DNA of 64,000 nucleotides from Eledone cirrhosa (taxonomy: Eukaryota): the NCBI GenBank assembly GCA_964016885.1, contig CAXHJY010000739.1:1-64000 (forward strand), given 5' to 3'. Each line of letters begins with the position of its first letter. Position 1 is the stretch's first letter. Position numbers and translations under genes: made by a program. Below are positions 1 through 52,680 of this stretch, piece after piece. Under the pieces are notes generated by a model that was given only the letters and a program-made list of their open reading frames with translations, did no database searches and was not told the DNA's origin.

Positions 1-5258
<5,258 letters not shown>

Positions 5259-8109: not shown

Positions 8110-9494
8110 TTTAAATGCGTCTTATCAATGAAATAAAATACTAACACACACCTCAGTCAGTTCAATAGTCCCCCCACCCATCTTTCTCCGTAAGTCAGTT
8201 TCCGTACAAACCCTCCTTACCTATCCCACCCCTGAAAATGTCCAGGCTAACACAGTTTACAAGTCTTCTTTCAGGCAGCAATTACGCTATAATATACTTG
8301 GTACGGGAAAATGATGATGAAACATTACTGAACGTTAAAAAACAACAACAAAAAACAACGAAACAAACGCAAAAAAAAACAAAAATAAAATAACGTGAAT
8401 GATGAGGGATGGTATCTGAAATCTGTTTAGTTAGCATCAAGCGTTAATGATGTCTAAATATTATTAATGACGATGATGATGATAGTAGCGTTTTTCCCTT
8501 CTTCTCCCCATCACCCGCGATTATCTTGTTCCCTTGATGGTCGACAATCAAGACAAAATAGAGTGATAAAGCAAAAATAAATAGGCAAAGGTCAGAAACG
8601 GAAAGCTACGAAGTTGAATGGTTTTTGTCCTGTTAGGATAATCTTTTTTTTAAAGTAATGTGTCGATCAATATTAGTTCTGGTGGAGAAAAATGGTCAAA
8701 TACGAAATGTCAGAAGTATGTAGGGAGGCCTGTCGAATGCGAAGGATGGCTTGGTTTTTTTTTTTTCCTTCTTTTTTTTCTCCCAACAATTTTTACCAAA
8801 ACATGTTTTGTTTAATCAGTTTGCGGCAATCTATGTTGAGGAGTGATTAAACACCTCCGTCTGGTCTAGTCGAGTTTATAAATAAGGTGTGGAGGAGAAG
8901 TACACCGACGAAAGATTTGGCTAGGGAACAGTGAACAAAAGCGACATAGTTTAGAGAGAAAGCGATGTGAGGCACGGAACGAGAGGGGGGGGGGGGGTCA
9001 GCTTGCGGAAAGCTTTGAGAGGAAAGTAAGTTCGAGTAGAGGTAGAGCGTCAGCTTATGGTATTCGGATTTGATTCGATAGATGTAAGGTTCGTTTCCAG
9101 GACACCCTCCCTTGCATATAGGCATAAGACTTACGGAGAGAGAGGGAGAGAGAGGTAAGAGACATCACAAACTCTGGCTTACCTCATCAATTCCGACTGA
9201 TGGAAGCATCTGCATTCGGTCTACACTTGTCGTACATACATCGTCGTCATCGTATCATCATCATCATCATCATCGTCGTTATCACTATCTTTATCATCAC
9301 TATCGACGTGGTGTTGATTTTTGTATTCTCATCCATCCATCCATGGACTAAAGTCGCAAGAACCTCCACAATAACGTATGGGAAGGAGATGTGTCATCTT
9401 AAGACATACAGTCCATATTTTGAGTTGGTATCTCTATCTATAAATAAAACAACTCGCTGACTACTGTAGCAAGTGTTTGTAATTTGTTATAATG

Positions 9495-10225
9495 GCTTTT
9501 TTTCACCCTCCCCCCTTTCTCCTCTTATTCTTTCTTCTTTCTATCTTTCTCTCTCTCTCTCTCTCAGTCTCCCTCCCTTCCCCCCAGAAGACAAAAGTAA
9601 AGGGAGAAAAAGAAAGGAGGAGTAGGAAGTCGGAGGGAGGGGAAGAAGATGGAGGGGAGGGTAACGGGAGACTAGTAAGCAGAAAAGTACTTACTAAGAT
9701 CAGATAATTTATCAAATAGCGACAGAAGAGGTGGGGGAGGTGTAAATAGAGAGAAAAGGGAGGAGGACGAAGAGGAAAGAGAAACAGAATCGAAGGAGAA
9801 CAGTGTAGTGAGAGAAAGAAGGTAGAAAGATATATGGGGAGAGGTAAGAGGATAGTGCTTGTGTCTGTGCGTATAGGGGGTGAGGTGATGTGTAGATTCA
9901 AAGGTAGAAGAAGAGGATAAAAAGAAACAATTGAAAGAAAGACATTATGAATAGAGATTAAAGTCGAAGGGGGTGGATAGGAAACAATACAGATGTAAAA
10001 ATGAAAAGGGGGGAAGGAAAGAGGAGAGATAATGTGACGGGAAATACAGAAATGAAAATACAGAAGAAGGAAGGGGAGGCTAATGAGAATGAGATGGAAG
10101 GATGAGGACATAAAAGAAAACGAAGTAGAAGACCTAAGGAAAATGAAAGGGATAGGAAAATAAAAGAAAGGGGGAGGAGAGGTGTTCTGTCACTTTCTCA
10201 CTCCTTCTCTTTCTTTCCTCCTCAT
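9495..10225. repeat. Polypyrimidine/polypurine low-complexity tract
   Basis: CT-rich at 9495-9585, ~590 bp strongly GA-rich at 9595-10180, then CT-rich again at 10185-10225. Confidence 0.8.
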
Positions 10226-23560: not shown

Positions 23561-24244
23561 AATAAGTCATCATTATCATTATCATCATCATCATCTTATG
23601 TCTATTTTTTTATGCTTGCATGGGTTTGACAGGTTGTCACATTCTTAGGCCAGACATGTCAGATGACTGCACCTTGCTCATACATGGTTCCTGTGGCAGG
23701 ATGCCCTTCCTAATGCCAACCACGTCACTGTGTGTACTAGATGTGTTTTATCATGTCACTGCCACTACCACCTGTCAGGGTGGGTGAGTACTTTTATTGT
23801 AGCATCAGAACTACAATTTTACTCTGGGTGCATTTATAGTGGCACCAACATTGCCAATTTACAGTGTGGGCTGAGTGCATTTCAATAAAACCATATACTC
23901 ATTAAGTCTCTGAACATATTCTATTTTTGTCTTCTAGGTAACAGACACTGTCGGCTACTTTTAGGGAGCCTTCCATCATTTATGAGATTTCTTTTTCATG
24001 AGTACTCTTAGTGCATATACCGTCTTTGGTTCTGCTGCATACATCGTCTTTCTTCTCACTGCATCTCTTGTATACCCATAGTTTACATTGGGTACACAAT
24101 ACAGAGTTCTACTAATTTTCTTGCATGTTGCATTGCCATTTTCCTGCTGTCAGTTGTTGCGTCCTATCTTCTTTGCTGCTAACAAATTTTTGATTTTGCT
24201 ACATATTCTTTTACTTTTTCATGACCATATTTCTAATGAAATAC

Positions 24245-24572
24245 ATCATCATCATCATACGTCCGCTTTTCCCTGCTTGCAAAGGTGGGACGAGTCTTAT
24301 TCAGCACTTGTCATGGTCCTTTGTCATCTCCTCAGTGAGCTTCAGCGATCTGAGGTGTGCTCTAACCACTTCCGCCCATGTTTTTCGTGGTCTTCCTCTA
24401 CTGCGTCTTCTTTCTACTGGGATTTCTTGGCACTTCTTTACCCAGTGGTCATCCTCCATGCGCATCACATGTCCATACCATCGCAGTCTTCTCTCTCGCA
24501 CACTACAACTTATTCCTCTTATACACAGTTTCTCTCTCAACTCATCTATGATTGGTCATCCATGCACATCCA
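24245..24572 (-). mobile_element. RTE LINE 3' end
   Basis: ORF 24301-24540: RERRLRWYGHVMRMEDDHWVKKC...RGRPRKTW, the RTE ORF C-terminal signature, plus a (GAT)n tail. Confidence 0.9.
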
Positions 24573-25336: not shown

Positions 25337-26194
25337 GCATATAACTGCGTGTGTGTATATTACACTATCATCATCAGATATTTTACCATTTTTTTTAATC
25401 CTCTGTGTAGTATGAGTCAGGTCATTCAATTAAACCTTTATGATTAACCTCTTTTATTTGGTGTAATTTCATGTTACTTTAGCAATTAAAGATGTTTTAA
25501 TTAAGTCAATTCTTAATCATTGTTTCTTCTTTTCTCTTTTTTCTTCTTCTTGCAGGTCTCTCTGTTGATAAAAATTTCACATTTGCAAATTCCTACCTGT
25601 GCAAACATTTGGAGATAATTCATAAGATTTTAACTCATGGTCTGACTGTATAAGTTTCCAAGTTGGACAAATCCTTGAAGAATTTACATCACATGGTGAT
25701 CTTTGAATAAACCCTTGTACTCTTGAGACTTTGGAAGTTGGAAGTAGGGGTAGCCAGGAGATACTTACTAAATCCCCCAAAACACACAAAAAAACACTAA
25801 AAGACACTGAAAAATAAACACAAACTTCTCAAACTGACTTCTTCAAAATGGTATCACTGGGTTGACAAAATCCTCTACAGATAATATGTACATGTAATTA
25901 ATTAATGAATGTGTGTGTGTGTATGAGTGAGTGAGTGTGTGTGTATTTGTTTGCATGTGTGAATTTGAATATGTGTGTGTTAATGTCATAAAATCTGACC
26001 ATTTAGTTCTTTAGTTTATTTCAGCCTCGATGGACAAGGCCATGCTGGGGCAAAGTAATTCTTTCAGTGAAACTTGTTAATAACAAATGCTAGACTTGGC
26101 AGGGAGGCTTCTTCATTTTTTTATCTTATCAGACTAAACTTGTTCTGTACTGAAACAAACCTCCCCACACCCACATACACGCTAAACATTAGTC

Positions 26195-28159
26195 ATGTAT
26201 TCAGTACAGTCTGTGTACACCCCAATGGGGAAACAGTTTTTTGGAACTTTTGATTTTAATGGAGGTAAAAGTTACCCTCCAACCTCAGAGCCTGAGACAG
26301 AGAGCCCACCTACCAGTACTCCATCAACCAATACTGGGATCACATCATCAAGTAACACTGGAATTACTAACAGTATAAGTTTTATGAACAATTCCTACCA
26401 ACATCATCACAGACAGATGTCCATACAACATAGTTTGGCCCACAAGAAACCATATCGATGTGATATTTGTCGAAAAGGATTTTCAAGAATGGCTAATTTA
26501 ACGAACCATGAACGTGCATCAGCTGCAGGTTTGACTCAAACGCATTTCAGTTGTGAATATTGTACAAAGGCTTTCAGCCAACGGGATTACTTACGGATAC
26601 ATGAACGTGTTCACACAGGGGAGAAACCTTTCAAGTGTTCTATGTGTGAACGCTCTTTCAGCCATCAAACCATTCTACAGAATCATGAACGAGTCCATAC
26701 TGGAGCCAAGCCATACAACTGTACAATTTGTTCCAAGACGTTTGCACATCAAACTACTCTTGTTAACCACCAACGTATTCATACTGGTGAAAAACCATAT
26801 CGGTGTTCGATCTGCAGTAAAAATTTTGCTCATCAGACTACGCTTATAAACCATGCGAGAACACACACAGGAGAGAAGCCTTTCAAGTGTTCGATATGTA
26901 TGAAAGCTTTTGCTCACCAAACAACGCTGATTAATCACCAACGTATCCACACTGGTGAAAAAACTTACCATTGTCCAACTTGTCTGAAGACGTTTGCTCA
27001 CCAAACCACTCTTATTAACCATCAGCGTGTCCACACTGGTGAAAAACCTTATAAGTGTTCAGTTTGTGACAAAATTTTTTCTCATCAGACAACACTGACA
27101 ATTCATGAACGGATTCACACTGGAGAACGCCTCTACAAGTGTTCACAGTGTGACAAAAGCTTCACACATCAAACCACTCTGAAAAACCACGAGCAGTGCC
27201 ATTCAACTGAGAAGGCTTATAAATGTTCGATTTGCATGAAATCATTTGCTCATCAAACATCTCTGTTGAATCACGAACGTGTTCACACAGGGGAAAAACC
27301 TTATCATTGTACGACATGCTTGAAGACATTTGCCCATCAAACCACACTAAAGAACCATGAACGGACACATACTGGAGAGAAACCATTTACATGTTCAATA
27401 TGTCAGAAGTCCTTCACACATCAAACTACCTTGCTGAATCACGAGAAGACCCACGTTGGAGAAGTGGTTGTTCCACCGGTATCGATGTCAGAGAATGCTG
27501 GCGGAATGGTATCTCGCACTACTGTATCATCACCAAACATATTCCACTGCACTATTTGTAGGAAATCCTTCTCACATCAAGCAGATTTGAAAAGCCACGA
27601 ACGGACTCATGTCTCGTCTGTTGGCAACAGTAATAATAACGAAAAGCTATACAACTATGATGGCACTTCTTCCAGTAGCATCCAACCTCCCTCTGGGTCT
27701 TCTGTTTCACCTGGTACAGGTGGTGCTGGAGGTAGTAGCAGTGCAACTGGAGACAAGACATACTCTTCAACTTCATTGTCTCAACATGACTCAGACACCC
27801 CACCTACCACAAGCCTCAACTCCAAGTCCAGCTCACATTCATCTCACAATCGAGGCAGCAGCAGCAACAACTCCTCTGCCTCTTCTAATAGTGCGGACAA
27901 ACACCACAGAGACCCCAATAGCCATCCATCATCTTCCCTTTCTCCGCGATCAAGCGGATCTCATCAGCAGACTCAATCCCATTTAAACCCCAACACACCA
28001 ATGCAGATGTCATCCTCTTACATCCATCAAATGTCATCCCACTGGGACAACAGCTACAGTTGGCCCAGAGGTTTTCCAGTGTCTTCGGGATGGAGCCCTA
28101 CATGGCCTAAACCCCCAAATCCTATACCTACATCAGTACGACAGAAAGAATTGACTTAA
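26195..28159 (+). CDS. C2H2 (Krueppel-type) zinc-finger protein, 654 aa, 13 fingers, Ser/His-rich disordered C-terminus
   Basis: Uninterrupted 1965-bp ORF. It has one degenerate finger (CDIC...HERAS), 11 contiguous CxxC-x12-HxxxH fingers with TGEKP-type linkers, one isolated finger (CTIC...HERTH), an S/T/P-rich N-terminus and an S/G/H/N-rich tail. Confidence 0.96.
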   Translation: MYSVQSVYTPMGKQFFGTFDFNGGKSYPPTSEPETESPPTSTPSTNTGITSSSNTGITNSISFMNNSYQHHHRQMSIQHSLAHKKPYRCDICRKGFSRMANLTNHERASAAGLTQTHFSCEYCTKAFSQRDYLRIHERVHTGEKPFKCSMCERSFSHQTILQNHERVHTGAKPYNCTICSKTFAHQTTLVNHQRIHTGEKPYRCSICSKNFAHQTTLINHARTHTGEKPFKCSICMKAFAHQTTLINHQRIHTGEKTYHCPTCLKTFAHQTTLINHQRVHTGEKPYKCSVCDKIFSHQTTLTIHERIHTGERLYKCSQCDKSFTHQTTLKNHEQCHSTEKAYKCSICMKSFAHQTSLLNHERVHTGEKPYHCTTCLKTFAHQTTLKNHERTHTGEKPFTCSICQKSFTHQTTLLNHEKTHVGEVVVPPVSMSENAGGMVSRTTVSSPNIFHCTICRKSFSHQADLKSHERTHVSSVGNSNNNEKLYNYDGTSSSSIQPPSGSSVSPGTGGAGGSSSATGDKTYSSTSLSQHDSDTPPTTSLNSKSSSHSSHNRGSSSNNSSASSNSADKHHRDPNSHPSSSLSPRSSGSHQQTQSHLNPNTPMQMSSSYIHQMSSHWDNSYSWPRGFPVSSGWSPTWPKPPNPIPTSVRQKELT

Positions 28160-30314
28160 ACATTTGGTTTCACTTTCAAACCACAAAAATCTCATTGGAA
28201 TAGATATTGAGTCCTGTAGTTTATAAAATTCTCTTTTCACTTCAAACTATCTCTACATCCCAAAGAGATGTACTTAAACAGTTTCTTTCTATGATTTTTC
28301 TTTTAAATCACAAATGACATCAAGTCAAATACATACAGTGACACTTTCTTTCTCCTCATTTCTGTCATCCATTTCATTACAATGTTTTGTAAGAAACTCA
28401 ATTATCTCCAAATAGGTTGTTACTCTTAATATATTCCAGGGCCTCTTTCATCTCTCTCTCTCGCTCTCTCTCTCTCTCTCACACTTGTTTCTACAGGAAG
28501 CAATTCTTCTTTTCTTTTCTCACTAAATATTTAAAATTTCTATATTTAGTGGAAAAGGTTTCATTTCTTATTTGAACCCAAATTGATCAGCACATTTATA
28601 TAATACAACCTTTATGACAGCTGAGTAACATTCTCAACACATCTGTTGCAGCTATGTCACATTACTAGAAATTTGGTTAAAAAAGCAGTTATGGAAATAA
28701 CGACAACCTAGAAATATGAATTAGTGTGGCTAATTATTATATATATGTTTTTTTTTTTTTTTCAATCGTAGTTGTATGTGATGGCCATCTTACAGTTTTA
28801 TTTAAAGATGCCGGTGAAAGTATGAATTGATCAACAACAGCAGGATATCATAGGCATTTTTGCAGTCTTATAAAGCAAGTTTCTATTTTTTTAGAAACTG
28901 TTTTTTTTTTCCAATCTATTTTAAGCTTTATATATGCAAAATGTTATCTATCTGGTGTTCTGGGTAAAAAAAATACCTAGCTGTGTAGAGAGTTGATCTT
29001 GTTGGAAAGTGTAATGCAACACTTCCAAAATAATGCATATATGAATGGTGTGAAGCAAACCAAAACATTTTAATTCTTCAATGAAAACAACAAAAAAGTA
29101 TTGATTCCATCAGCCCTGTAATATTCAACAACAAAATAGCTATTTTGATTAAAGTAATTGGGGTGTATCAACAACAATCTGGATGATGTGGGGAGGCAAT
29201 ATTTTTGTAGGAATCAAGGTGGATCAACAACACATACTGATTATGTGTGAAGGCAGTATTACTTTTTTGGTGGGTGGGCGACGTGTTGTGCAACAAATTC
29301 TCTCTTGTCTTTATGTCAGTCTTACAATAATTAAAACAGTCATTGACCTTTTCTAACCCCTTAACCCCACCCATCACATCTTAACTGCCATCTGATCATT
29401 TGTATACTACTACAGTTTATTTATATACCTTATCTATATGTAACACCTCTCTCTTGTGCATACATTCATGCAGTGTACATATATACATACATATGGGTGT
29501 ATGTTATGTAGGTAACAGCTCCTTATTGTCATGTGTCTGGTTATTGGTGCAAACATCACAAACTAAACAATAGATATTTTAATAATTTTTCTATTATTTG
29601 AGATAATCATTTTTTTCTTTGATGGTGTCTCATTGCTTCCTTGGAGAAATTGTCCATTTTAAAATTGAAATTGCATCCAATTGGCATCATTATGGTTCGA
29701 TCTAGTGTGGACTTCCCAGTGACAGAGATGTGTGGCAAGACTTATGAGTGAACTAGAACAGATGAAAACACTGTGTCAAAGTGGTGATTTGAAATCAGAG
29801 TCCTATCCCCACACTCCCTTCCCATAACTGCCATTTTAAATCACTAACCAACCCATCTATTGCTAATAGCTTGTATGTGGAAATATTTAAATGGTAGCTT
29901 GTCTTTCCCTAATCATTGTAACAGAAATAGAAATTGGTAAAGGTTTCCTTGATTTCATTAAGTTCGTTTCATCAGACAAAGGAAAACAAAAGGAAATCTT
30001 GCAAAAGTGTTATTTCTATGTCAGTACCACCATTTTGGGGTTTCAAATTTATTCCATCCTGTTGTTTACTAGTTTGATCAGTGTGTACTGCATCTTACCC
30101 AGTTCTCTTCCCACTTAGTCATTTCAATTCTTCAGTCGGTTCAGCAGCAGATTTTGAATTGTTTTCATTCTACAAAAGACTGCATATATATATGAAATCT
30201 ATATGTATGTGTGTGTGAGTGTAGGTGGATTGATGGATGTGTGTATGTACTGCATGTAATCACTTAACTATATATTTTTTATATCACACACACACATATA
30301 TGTATATGTATAAC

Positions 30315-31450
30315 TTTGATAACTTTAGGCCAGTATTGGCCTAAGCCATGTCTAACTTAATAGCACCAGCTGGCAGTCTTTCAGATCATGATTCACACTT
30401 CAGTCATGTTTTGGACACCGTGCCCCACTTTAGTAAAGAGTTATTGTTTTTGGAGACATATCCAGGTGTAGAGGGTTTATCCGGAATTTCTGGGAGGAAT
30501 TTGTCTAGAGACATTTTGAATTTTATGAAATCTGTTTCTGTTTTGATATTAAAGAGAGTGGGCCAAGTTGAGGTGATATAGTTGTGACTTAATGCTGTTA
30601 TGAGATGAGAGTTCAATTTTTGTAGTGGGCAGCTAGCACAGGGACCAAGCCTTGGATTGATTTTCAAGTTGATGCTAACATCATTTGGGTAATGTTGATA
30701 GAATATTTTCGACATCATATAGATGATGTAGTGCTCACAGCAGCATTGGAGAGAGTATAGTTTGAGTTTTTCTAGTCGACCCCAATAGTCAAGGCCTGTC
30801 ATGCCATCTATCTTTTTTGTAATTGACCTCTAGGGTACTTCAATTTTTATAATACTTTTTCATGTGAGGAGGTAATAATGGACATCAGTATCCAGAGTGG
30901 GACTGAGCAAAGGTAGAAAAGAGAAGGATGATGGTGTGGATATCTCTCAACTGGAAAGTTCTATGATTCCAGGAACATATAATCAACTTTGTTGATTATA
31001 TGAGTACTCTAGCTTAAGTTGTTATCACCAATTACTCCAAGGTTTGAAGCGTTGTTGAATGCCATGAGGTTTCACCTGAGGGAAGAGAATATGCTAACTT
31101 TAGTGCATTCTTTTTTCCAAAGTGGATTAATTCAAATTTGTTTTCATTTTGTAGAACAGTCTCCCAGTCTGTTGATGACCATCTGGAGCTTAGAATCATC
31201 TGCAAAGATTCTTATGTTGCTGCGCCTATAATGTCATTGATATAACTAATGAATAGAAGTGGGCCCAACACAGTGCCTTGTGGGACACCAATGTTGGATA
31301 GTTTCTTGAACACGATGCTATAATCAACCCTTGCTGAAATTAAAGTATATAACATTAGTATTGGGGTCCTCTCACAAAGCCTTTAGGATGTCATCAAAGT
31401 AATGCAGAAGCCATATCAGGATTGCTGAAAATGGACCAGTATTGTTTCTG
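30315..31450 (-). mobile_element. 5'-truncated CR1-clade LINE relic
   Basis: Minus-strand GVPQGTVLGPLLFISYIND, IFADDSKL and LDYWGRLEKLKLYSLQ (CR1 ORF2 C-terminal motif), with multiple stops. Confidence 0.88.
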
Positions 31451-39045: not shown

Positions 39046-39502
39046 ATATACTCCAACTTTCCATAGTAAAGGGAATGTTAACATATTGAATTTAATGATG
39101 AGAAACAATGATTTATTTAGATCAGTATAGGCAGGGGAGACAACCTTAGTATTAATGCCAATAAAAACGATAACGTGCAGTGAGTCCAATTCACACTGGT
39201 AAGTGGAATTACTAACGTCACGATAAAATGCACCCAGTCCACTCTGTAAAATGTAGAGCTGGTACCACAATAAAACACACCCAGTTGACACCGTATAGTG
39301 TTAGTACTGGTGCCACAATAAAAATGCACCCAGCTGTAAAGTGGTAGTGCTGTTGTTACGTTAAAACGTATCCAGTACACGCCATGCAGTGATTGACATT
39401 GGGAAAGGAATCCTGCCAGTTTTGCGCAGATCTACATAACTCTTACGTTTGGTGGAAAATAGTTATTTTTCTTAAGGCTGGGGGGGTTATCAACAAATCT
39501 AA

Positions 39503-39810
39503 ACTCTTAATTGCTCGTAATCGACTTTTTCCTGAAAAACGGAGTCCCTAACACTAACCCTAATCCGGGGGGAAAAAAGTCGATTGCGAGCGTCTAAGAG
39601 ATCATATTAGTTGATGGATCTGTGAAACTCCGATGGTCTTTTTGCCCCCTTTCATATAAAGCTAGTCGTTTCCGACTGGTTTGGAAGTTATATTCGTGGA
39701 TAGAACGTGAAAAAAAAAATCGTAGAGAAGACTCCGATGAGGGCAGGAGGGCATCCATCCCACCTCTCCGATTTCCAGGACAAAAGGTCGATTGCGAGCA
39801 TCTTAGAGCT
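39503..39810. mobile_element. Non-autonomous element with inverted repeats and a CCTAAC-like core (HINE/MITE-like)
   Basis: CTCTTAATTGCTCGTAATCGACTTTTT pairs with AAAAAGTCGATTGCGAGCGTCTAAGAG around CCCTAACACTAACCCTAAT. A third arm copy lies at ~39782-39810. Confidence 0.55.
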
Positions 39811-39884
39811 TAAATTATTTGATAGCACACGAAAAACCAAGTTAAACCTTTTTCCCCCACGGAAATCGAAGGTGTTCTTCGATA

Positions 39885-40470
39885 ATGGTTTCTGATTTAG
39901 GCACAGGGCCATCAATTTTTAGGGAGGGGAAAGTTGATTAAATCGACCCCGTAAGGATGAAAGGAAAAGCTAACTCTGGCAGGATTTGAACTCAGAATGT
40001 AAAGGGACATAACTCTATGGTGTACGATGCTCTGCCAATCCATCGCCCTGTGTTTGATGTTTCTACTTTTGGCACAAGGCCAGCAATTACCCCATTGCAT
40101 TACTGCTGCTTTATTTTATCGGTAAGGATGAAAAGCAAAGTGTTCGATAATAATAATAAAAAAAAAAAAATAAATAAATAAAACTATTGACATAAGGCCA
40201 ACAAATTTATGGGAAGAACAAAATTGATTAAATCAACTTCAGATTATTTTCATATATGTCCACACGTGGTGCTGCTGTTGACGTGGATATTAATACTATT
40301 ATTGTTATTATCTTTTTATGTTCTGAGTTCAAATCCCGTCAAGGTTAGCTTTGCTTTTCATCCTTATGGGGTCGATAAAATAAAGTACCAGTAATGTACT
40401 GCAGTCGATTTAATTGACTTTCCCCTCCCCCCAAAATCGTTGGCCTTGAGCCTTAATCAGAAACTTTTAT
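39885..40470. mobile_element. Inverted pair of CORE-SINEs plus fragments
   Basis: 39885-40040 (-) and 40315-40470 (+) are reverse complements through the B box and CORE domain. Confidence 0.8.
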
Positions 40471-40499
40471 TATTATTATTAGTAGTAATACTGATTATT

Positions 40500-51582: not shown

Positions 51583-52680
51583 TTAAGTATTCATTTTTGC
51601 ATGAGACTTCTTATGTTTCAATAAGTGACTTCCATCAGTAAACTTCCGGTCACATATGTCACAGCTGTAGGGTTTCTCTCCTGTGTGTATTCGCTGGTGT
51701 CTACGAAGGTCAAATCCTCGAGCAAACTTCTTCCCACAGACATTACATTCATGAGGTCTGATGCCAGTGTGGCTGCCTCGATAATGAGAATTCAGGTGGC
51801 TGATCTCGCCAAACCTGAAGCCACAGAGAGGACACTCATGTGGTTTTTCTCCTGTGTGGGTTCTGTGGTGACGAGTAAGATCACACTGTTTTCTAAAGCT
51901 CTTCTCACAAATATCACAGACAAAGGGTCGAATTGAAGAATGGGTTAGCATGTGAGCCTTCAAATGACTATTTTGGAGAAATCGTTTATCACAGAGGTCA
52001 CACTTGAACCGCCGTTCACCCGATTGCGACCGGTTGTGTGTATGGAGATGGCTGCCTTTAGAATACAGATTCTGACAGATGTCACAAAAGAAAAGTTTGC
52101 TTGTTTCATTCTCAACTTTCACCCTGATAGCTCCTGCATTCTTTTCAAGTGGTTGACTGGGCATATTATTCTGACATGGTTGGCTGGTGGTGTTACTTTG
52201 ACATGGTTGATTGGTGGTGTTACTTTGACAGGGTTGACTGGTGGTGTTACTTTGACATGGTTGACTGGGAGTGCTACTTTGACAGGGTTGACTGGTGGTA
52301 TTACTTTGACAGGGTTGATTGGTGTTACTTTGACATGGTTGACTGGTGATATTACTTTGAAATGATTGAATAGTTGTATTGCTTTGAAATGGTTGACTGG
52401 TCATATTGTTCTGACATGGTTGAGTGGTGGTATTGTTCTGATGAAATGACTGAATGGCTGCATTGCTTTGAAATGGTTGACCAACTGTACTAGTTTGAAA
52501 TGGTTGAGTAGTTACATTATTTTGAAATGACTGAGAGCTAGAATTGTTTTGAAATGGTTGATTGCTTGCAGTTGCAGGATTAAGCAAGTCCTTATTGGAC
52601 TTTTTACAACCGTGCATCATAACATCAACATTCCCACCAGCATCACTTTCACTGAGGTTTGGTATAGGGAAAAGGTCCAT
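51583..52680 (-). CDS. C2H2 zinc-finger protein, 365 aa: N-terminal 9-aa Q/S/N/T tandem repeat plus 6 fingers (first degenerate)
   Basis: Intact ORF with fingers CDLC, CDIC, CPLC, CNVC and CDIC joined by TGEKP/TGIRP/SSIRP linkers; repeat consensus SQP(F/C)QSNTT. Confidence 0.95.
   Translation of the reverse strand: MDLFPIPNLSESDAGGNVDVMMHGCKKSNKDLLNPATASNQPFQNNSSSQSFQNNVTTQPFQTSTVGQPFQSNAAIQSFHQNNTTTQPCQNNMTSQPFQSNTTIQSFQSNITSQPCQSNTNQPCQSNTTSQPCQSSTPSQPCQSNTTSQPCQSNTTNQPCQSNTTSQPCQNNMPSQPLEKNAGAIRVKVENETSKLFFCDICQNLYSKGSHLHTHNRSQSGERRFKCDLCDKRFLQNSHLKAHMLTHSSIRPFVCDICEKSFRKQCDLTRHHRTHTGEKPHECPLCGFRFGEISHLNSHYRGSHTGIRPHECNVCGKKFARGFDLRRHQRIHTGEKPYSCDICDRKFTDGSHLLKHKKSHAKMNT
52141..52563 (-). 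repeat. Coding 27-bp minisatellite (~15 units)
   Basis: On the + strand the unit GGTTGACTGGTGGTGTTACTTTGACA(T/G) repeats in frame. Confidence 0.92.

What the first reader, a model, noticed from the sequence alone, without database searches (positions are those of the whole stretch)
26630..27454. Ten tandem zinc fingers with one conserved recognition helix (HQTTLxN): candidate microsatellite-reading protein
Seen: fingers 3-12 have helix positions -1..+6 HQTILQN, HQTTLVN, HQTTLIN x3, HQTTLTI, HQTTLKN, HQTSLLN, HQTTLKN and HQTTLLN. H(-1), Q(+1) and T(+2) are invariant, T(+3) is present in 8/10 and N(+6) in 9/10, while scaffold residues and synonymous codons differ (CAT CAA ACT ACT / CAT CAG ACT ACG / CAC CAA ACA ACG). 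This is the reverse of the usual pattern of diversified contact residues, and argues for old purifying selection rather than recent duplication. Established: each finger reads ~3 bp via -1/+2/+3/+6. From memory, engineered ANN-triplet modules HRTTLTN (AGT) and HKNALQN (ATT) share H-1 and N+6. Inference: the protein binds a ~30-bp period-3 repeat such as (AGT)n or (ATT)n, in a genome rich in microsatellites and (ATT)n-tailed SINEs. It could be a dedicated microsatellite or SINE-tail reader, with a disordered tail for cofactor recruitment.
Basis: partly seen in the sequence, partly recalled or inferred. Interest (0 to 1): 0.8.

Follow-up and report, generated by a model that had tools for sequence, protein, structure and literature searches.

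The report
Ten-finger triplet-repeat DNA reader
A gene in what is likely an octopus genome has ten zinc fingers in a row that keep nearly the same DNA-contact residues although their silent DNA letters have drifted apart, so it likely binds a three-letter DNA repeat, predicted to be (ACT)n, much as the fly protein Aef1 binds (ACA)n.

Summary
Observation confirmed. An intact ORF (26225-28159, +) has 13 C2H2 fingers. In fingers 3-12, H-1, Q+1 and T+2 are 10/10, T+3 8/10 and N+6 9/10. Synonymous sites between fingers are saturated (pS 0.88 at contact codons), yet contact pN is 0.067 against 0.43 in the variable scaffold. That indicates purifying selection, not recent duplication. It is the most extreme of 103 arrays compared.

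Published one-hybrid data show fly Aef1 and CG4360 fingers with T+3/N+6 read ACA repeats, and H-1 fingers mostly prefer T. This predicts ACT. The engineered HRTTLTN module (AGT) points to the same duplex repeat, (ACT/AGT)n. (ATT)n and SINE tails rank low.

Binding is untested, and the window holds no ACT tract. No orthologous protein was found, though two other organisms hold the 5' part. Repeated helices reading a repeated triplet are known (Aef1), so this is a new, longer variant of a known kind.

The parts
25531..25555 (+). Pyrimidine tract and AG splice acceptor of the large exon that holds the whole ORF
   Evidence: Sequence. A contig of run X1 starts matching exactly at 25556 with 136 other letters before it, while DNA-type run X5 continues upstream. 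X1 is not on record as RNA, so splicing is inferred.
25556..26194 (+). 5' leader within the same exon, with 14 upstream ATGs (uORFs of 1-19 codons)
   Evidence: X1 contig 1 is continuous over it; ATG list
26225..28159 (+). Single-exon ORF, 644 aa from ATG 26225 (654 aa from the in-frame ATG 26195), 13 C2H2 fingers; no KRAB, SET, BTB or other non-finger Pfam domain above its cut-off
   Evidence: All coding differences shown for organisms B and C are synonymous (40 of 93 rows were shown).
26225..26452 (+). N-terminal S/T/P/N-rich low-complexity segment, likely disordered
   Evidence: Composition; no Pfam family; 2 weak hits only among 1.84 billion representatives
26453..26536 (+). Finger 1, degenerate (helix RMANLTN; second His replaced by Ser)
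26546..26629 (+). Finger 2, different helix (QRDYLRI), joined to finger 3 by TGEKP; may anchor one end of a bound tract (inferred)
26630..27454 (+). Fingers 3-12: ten tandem fingers, 84-nt period, helix HQTTLxN; 5 of 9 internal linkers TGEKP, the others TGAKP, TGEKT, TGERL, STEKA
27542..27625 (+). Finger 13, isolated, helix HQADLKS
27620..28156 (+). 179-aa Ser-rich tail (52 Ser, 18 Pro) with Trp/Tyr/Pro near the end; likely disordered; cofactor role untested
   Evidence: no Pfam family; no homologue of the tail
28160..30811 (+). Probable long 3' UTR; the end is estimated from contig length and was not aligned beyond 28450
   Evidence: X1 contig 4 covers 26777-28450 and has 2361 more letters beyond

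Best explanation
This is an intact C2H2 zinc-finger gene whose ten central fingers keep nearly the same contact residues, and it likely encodes a DNA-binding protein that reads a period-3 repeat, predicted to be (ACT)n with some tolerance of ACC, which is the (ACT/AGT)n microsatellite class. Shown: the array, its canonical fold and linkers, and selection that keeps the contact residues alike while synonymous sites are saturated. Taken from published code data: N+6 reads the 5' A, T+3 the middle C, and H-1 the 3' T or C. Inferred: equal helices spaced one finger apart read equal triplets 3 bp apart, so the array would bind tracts of up to about 30 bp in any register. Affinity would rise with tract length, and shorter (ACT)2-4 sites could be bound by a subset of fingers. 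The low-complexity tails would recruit chromatin or transcription cofactors (untested).
For: Selection. [quoted passage not shown] Code: 7 of 7 natural T+3/N+6 fingers (Aef1 x4, CG4360 x3) prefer A then C; CG4360 QLTTXRN, which shares T+2/T+3/N+6, gives A 0.99, C 0.94 (PMC4005693 supplement 3). Four engineered RSDTLKN entries give C 0.59-0.75 in the middle and A first in 3 of 4. T is the top 3' base in 10 of 12 H-1 entries that I read, C in 2. The composite ranks ACT first at 0.44. HRTTLTN = AGT gives the same duplex repeat. Real gene: spliced-looking contig, and only synonymous changes shown in two other organisms.
Against: No binding data. No finger with H/T/T/N was found in the one-hybrid file, so the triplet is pieced together from different fingers, and the H-1 entries came from term searches, not the whole file. 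H-1 specificity is soft (T 0.24-1.0). The engineered module and the one-hybrid data disagree on the middle base (G against C) and agree only at repeat-class level. The window has 0 ACT-class runs among 13 trinucleotide runs (8 ATC, 4 AAT, 1 AGC); its best 30-bp ACT match is 21/30, and the best matrix score (16.2 of 44.2) is near the shuffled maximum of 14.8. Fly motif sizes plateau at about three fingers, which the authors partly ascribe to their method (PMC3668361 Discussion), so all ten fingers need not be used. Helix conservation in orthologues is not shown.
Confidence: 0.55

Rival explanations
1. It reads a period-3 or homopolymer tract of another class, such as the (ATC/GAT)n ends of retroposons, (ATT)n SINE tails or T-rich runs, and so acts as a retroposon-tail reader.
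For: ATC-class runs are 8 of 13 trinucleotide runs in the window and several sit at LINE- or SINE-like ends; TTA runs flank a SINE-like element near 40300-40490. T+3 gives T at 0.2-0.46 in some engineered contexts. ZNF motifs are predicted to match transposons in octopus (PMC10547256 passages).
Against: Natural T+3/N+6 fingers give C 0.93-0.99 in 6 of 7 cases. Composite class values are AAT 0.035, AAA 0.007 and ATC 0.005 against ACT 0.44. Strong purifying selection is the opposite of the positive selection reported at contact residues of transposon-targeting ZNFs.
Confidence: 0.17
2. The conserved helix face binds a repetitive non-DNA ligand (a triplet-repeat RNA or a repetitive protein), or binds DNA in a non-canonical way.
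For: Q+1, which is not a canonical base contact, is also 10/10. The helix has no Arg or Lys at contact positions. Some fly ZFPs that failed in one-hybrid assays are thought to bind RNA or protein.
Against: The linkers are mostly canonical. The conserved set includes all four base-contact positions while +5 varies. Fly fingers with near-identical determinants bind DNA.
Confidence: 0.2
3. The likeness is a by-product of recent internal duplication or gene conversion, as recalled for PRDM9 arrays, and has no functional meaning.
For: An 84-bp tandem period is detected over 26741-27060 at 70% match. Fingers 4, 6, 7 and 10 are slightly closer to one another (pS 0.53-0.75).
Against: Synonymous sites are saturated even within the helix codons (pS 0.88-0.90), the scaffold has diverged (pN 0.43), and the longest shared run is 17 nt. 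Recently homogenised arrays in the background have scaffold identity at or above contact identity, e.g. P0085 0.65/0.83.
Confidence: 0.03

Closest known systems
Drosophila Aef1 and CG4360 (repeating-ACA C2H2 fingers)
   Same: Tandem fingers with one repeated determinant set: Aef1 QLSTxTN, QSSTxTN, QLSTxAN, QSSTxNN; CG4360 QLTTxRN, QISTxTN, QQSTxIN. T+3 and N+6 are shared, and they read a repeating triplet (PMC4005693 supplement 3; PMC3668361 Discussion).
   Different: His instead of Gln at -1 (predicted ACT, not ACA); ten fingers against the four and three characterised; invariant Q+1. Orthology was not tested because no Aef1 or CG4360 sequence was fetched.
Engineered module HRTTLTN (AGT)
   Same: Identical at -1, +2, +3, +4 and +6 (PMC7317221 Table 1)
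   Different: Artificial, used singly in mixed arrays; Arg rather than Gln at +1; assigned a middle G, which the one-hybrid data for T+3 do not favour
Drosophila CLAMP, GAF and Combgap (simple-repeat-binding C2H2 proteins)
   Same: C2H2 proteins reported on simple repeats: CLAMP on long GA repeats, Combgap enriched on ACATAT (bioRxiv 10.1101/2024.12.04.626877, passages)
   Different: Their repeats are di- or hexanucleotide; their helices were not compared here
Expanded coleoid cephalopod C2H2 families
   Same: Polydactyl C2H2 gene without KRAB or another accessory domain, in an octopus-like genome; a second ZNF gene lies in the window
   Different: Typical arrays have diverse contact residues (PMC10547256 passages; the neighbouring gene has six different helices). 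Their binding sites are described as an open question (PMC12513265 section 16).
PRDM9-type homogenised arrays
   Same: Long array of alike fingers
   Different: Reverse pattern: PRDM9 has a near-identical scaffold and variable contacts (recalled); here there is no SET or KRAB domain and synonymous sites are saturated

Membership tests
Kruppel-type tandem C2H2 zinc-finger protein | C-x2-C-x12-H-x3-H with F and L core, 28-aa period | tested here: met
   (PF00096, PF13465); fingers 2-13 intact, finger 1 degenerate
Kruppel-type tandem C2H2 zinc-finger protein | Beta-beta-alpha fold and TGEKP-type linkers | tested here: met
   AlphaFold2 model pLDDT 93.3; TGEKP in 6 of 10 linkers between fingers 2 and 12
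Aef1/CG4360-like repeating-triplet readers (works like) | Same determinant set repeated in consecutive fingers, with T+3 and N+6 | tested here: met
Aef1/CG4360-like repeating-triplet readers (membership) | Gln at -1 (reads the 3' A of ACA) | tested here: not met
   His at -1 in 10 of 10
Aef1/CG4360-like repeating-triplet readers (membership) | Orthology to Aef1 or CG4360 | not tested
   No such protein came up: 8 of 243 fetched proteins have any T+3/N+6 finger and none has more than two
Aef1/CG4360-like repeating-triplet readers (works like) | Measured binding to a repeating triplet | not testable with these tools
   Needs SELEX, PBM or EMSA
PRDM9 | KRAB/SSXRD/SET domains before the array | tested here: not met
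   Pfam scans of the ORF and of both ends; the leader has only short uORFs
KRAB-, SCAN-, BTB- or ZAD-type ZNF | N-terminal effector domain | tested here: not met
Octopus- or coleoid-specific C2H2 expansion clusters | Placement in one of the 19 expansion clades of PMC12513265 | not testable with these tools
   The sequence set is in Dryad; the 2 supplementary files held contain no HQTTL
Conserved orthologue group | HQTTLxN helices kept in other species | tested here: inconclusive
   Contigs of organisms B and C cover only to about 26801 (fingers 1-4), and 40 of 93 difference rows were shown; no orthologous protein

The most novel reading that the evidence does not exclude
Octopods evolved a dedicated length-sensing reader of (ACT/AGT)n microsatellites. 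Ten equal fingers wrap about three helical turns of a 30-bp tract and turn repeat length into cofactor recruitment across the genome, which would make these microsatellites tunable regulatory or chromatin-organising elements.
Probability: 0.25. Interest if true: 0.75.

Novelty: new variant of a known kind. Interest (0 to 1): 0.5.

Why it matters
What the more than a thousand cephalopod C2H2 proteins bind is described as open (PMC12513265 section 16). This gene gives an unusually simple, falsifiable prediction: one triplet, ten times. It can be tested with ten repeat oligos and needs no cephalopod genetics. If right, it is a natural reader of a long triplet repeat kept by purifying selection rather than an arms race, which would imply that its target matters to the host. 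It would also add a natural H/T/T/N finger to recognition-code data, where I found none. The principle itself is already known from Aef1.

Tried and rejected
Orthologue searches found none: fingers at near lengths (best 120 of 8000 scored, top identity 56%), tail (1 generic hit among 4485 candidates), shorter proteins (best 120 listed, top 306 bits), N-terminus against 1.84 billion representatives (2 weak hits), exact look-up of three start variants. By calibration a full-length relative at 80% identity would have been listed and one at 70% would not. Proteins over 1127 aa were not searched with the fingers or the tail.

ESM Atlas and PDB sequence search gave generic C2H2 hits only. A pattern for two HQTTL helices 84 nt apart matched 24 metagenome and 2 viral loci; 0 of 26 encode zinc fingers in that frame.

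No RNA holder listed. X9 (RNA guessed) gave only short pieces under 120 letters among those listed. Lack of cover beyond about 27470 in X5, X6 and X9 is no finding. No whole genome is held, so genome-wide ACT tract counts and paralogue counts could not be made.

The single-sequence AlphaFold2 run gave a low-confidence all-beta model (pLDDT 47.9), rejected as an artefact after the alignment-based run. The best matrix hits lie in the gene's own Thr/Pro-rich codons and are near shuffled scores; rejected. The telomere repeat was rejected because period 6 would need alternating helices. Rfam gave 0 matches.

Literature: 'HQTTL' occurs in 0 papers of the held library and in none of the supplements searched of PMC12513265 and PMC10547256 (three files of the latter were not searched). 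Look-ups of earlier scan findings gave nothing that bears on this. PMC4330361, PMC12564688, PMC12988792 and bioRxiv 2023.05.16.540928 gave no recognition data or trinucleotide class counts in the passages seen.

Full report
Observation. The stretch 26630-27454 lies in a stop-to-stop frame of 657 codons (26186-28159, +), with in-frame ATGs at 26195 and 26225. It encodes 13 C2H2 fingers. Finger 1 lacks its second His and finger 2 has QRDYLRI. Across fingers 3-12, H-1, Q+1 and T+2 are 10 of 10, T+3 8 of 10 and N+6 9 of 10. Pfam finds no non-finger domain above its cut-off in the ORF and no family at either end. AlphaFold2 with a 41-row alignment gives ten canonical fingers (pLDDT 93.3); a single-sequence run gave a low-confidence all-beta model that I rejected.

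More than chance or recent copying. Four-fold third positions agree in 85 of 260 pairs (33%; 29% expected at random). Over the 45 finger pairs, which are not independent, contact codons have pS 0.88 and pN 0.067. The zinc and core residues have pN 0.004, the linkers 0.27 and the other scaffold 0.43. No two fingers share more than 17 nt in register. As a control I scored the 243 other proteins fetched; 102 have ten tandem fingers. Taking each one's most uniform window, this protein ranks first with contact identity 0.86 against scaffold 0.40. The next is 0.69/0.56 and the median 0.31/0.52. Two of the 102 have contact above scaffold, and 0 of 2473 fingers have H/T/T/N. These controls are mostly vertebrate top hits, not cephalopod genes. 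The second ZNF gene in the window has six different helices.

Is it a real gene? In run X1 (same organism; possibly the window's own source; not on record as RNA) a contig begins matching exactly at 25556, after a pyrimidine tract and AG, with 136 other letters before it. A DNA-type contig of organism B runs on upstream. I read this as a spliced transcript whose large exon holds a leader with 14 upstream ATGs, the ORF and a long 3' UTR. Organisms B and C hold the 5' part to about 26801 (26 other letters over 25958-26802 and 52 over 26185-26801). The coding differences shown, 9 places in B and 4 in C, are all synonymous, but only 40 of 93 rows were printed and fingers 5-12 were not covered by the orthologous contigs. 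Helix conservation across species is therefore not shown. That the organism is an octopus is inferred from the repeat landscape and the paralogue type; no call names it.

Relatives. No orthologous protein turned up. A full-length relative at 80% identity would have passed the listing cut, and one at 70% would not. Pattern scans of metagenome and viral contigs gave 26 loci, 0 with zinc fingers in that frame. No whole genome is held.

What it would read. PMC7317221 Table 1 (passage) assigns HRTTLTN to AGT; it equals HQTTLxN at -1, +2, +3 and +6. More telling is the one-hybrid data set of PMC4005693 (abstract, passages, supplement 3 part 1 of 28 plus term searches; supplement 1 and the PDF were not readable). 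All 7 natural fingers with T+3 and N+6 that I found, four of Drosophila Aef1 and three of CG4360, read A-C-A. In six the middle C is 0.93-0.99 and in one 0.50. Four RSDTLKN entries give middle C 0.59-0.75, with A first in three and G in one. Of 12 His-1 entries that I read, T is the top 3' base in 10 and C in 2; these came from term searches and are not all such entries. Multiplying the means gives ACT 0.44, ACC 0.14, ACA 0.09, ACG 0.07 and ATT 0.013. (ACT)n and (AGT)n are the two strands of one repeat, so the two lines agree on the class while disagreeing on the triplet a finger touches. No H/T/T/N finger was found in that file.

Evidence against. The window contains 13 perfect trinucleotide runs of four or more units: 8 ATC class, 4 AAT, 1 AGC, 0 ACT. 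The best 30-bp ACT match is 21 of 30, and matrix scores are near shuffled values. One 64-kb window says little about the genome, but it offers no target, and the ATC runs at retroposon ends keep the rival alive. The code is context dependent. PMC3668361 (passages and Discussion; supplements not opened) notes that motifs plateau at about three fingers and that some ZFPs bind RNA or protein.

Mechanism. Shown: array, fold, linkers, selection on the contact face. From published data: the per-residue base preferences. Inferred: equal helices read equal triplets, so the protein binds (ACT)n-like tracts in any register with length-dependent avidity, finger 2 perhaps marking an end, and the Ser-rich tail (52 Ser of 179) recruits cofactors. 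Confidence 0.55; another repeat class 0.17; a non-DNA or non-canonical ligand 0.20; neutral homogenisation 0.03.

Comparison and novelty. [quoted passage not shown] It is not filed as a member, because -1 is His rather than Gln and orthology is untested. CLAMP and Combgap are other C2H2 proteins reported on simple repeats (bioRxiv 2024.12.04.626877, passages). It is not PRDM9 or a KRAB-type gene; the PRDM9 pattern is recalled. Contact residues are normally among the most variable positions (PMC10547256, passages), and cephalopod C2H2 targets are described as open (PMC12513265, abstract and sections 8 and 16). 'HQTTL' occurs in 0 papers of the held library and in none of the supplements searched. 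Most subscription papers, the Dryad set of PMC12513265 and three supplementary files of PMC10547256 were not seen and could hold the gene.

Verdict. A real and unusual array under old purifying selection, with a sharpened and cheaply testable prediction, but of a kind already known in flies. New variant of a known kind; interest 0.5.

Noticed in passing
window 51586-52680 (-): Second C2H2 gene, 365 aa, with six fingers that all have different helices (first one degenerate) and an N-terminal 9-aa Q/S/N/T repeat from a 27-bp minisatellite. Used as an in-window control.
   Followed up: partly
window ~56985 (-): Lone finger-like motif interrupted by a stop codon, possibly a ZNF pseudogene remnant.
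   Followed up: no
window 3-5258: A 5.2-kb (AT)-rich microsatellite with interspersed AC, GC about 10%.
   Followed up: no
window 25556-26194: Leader with 14 upstream ATGs, five of them opening short uORFs in the main frame; three lie at 26030-26137. Possible translational control.
   Followed up: no
window 16166, 18208, 23581, 24244, 31981: (ATC)n runs abutting similar retroposon-like ends; the one at 24244 lies just past a LINE-like reading frame at 24301-24555 (-). The LINE label is recalled; Pfam gave no family.
   Followed up: partly
window 40288-40490: SINE-like element with a B-box-like motif, flanked by TTA runs and ending in TTA then AGTAGT; label recalled, Rfam gave no match.
   Followed up: no
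window 8500-9500 and 39250-40000: Stretches with CpG observed/expected of about 0.9-1.0, possible promoter or first-exon regions; the unplaced 136-nt upstream exon was not mapped.
   Followed up: no
P0097, P0024: Two mammalian ZNFs with milder contact uniformity (YSSSL and HSSSL runs) exceeding their scaffold identity.
   Followed up: no
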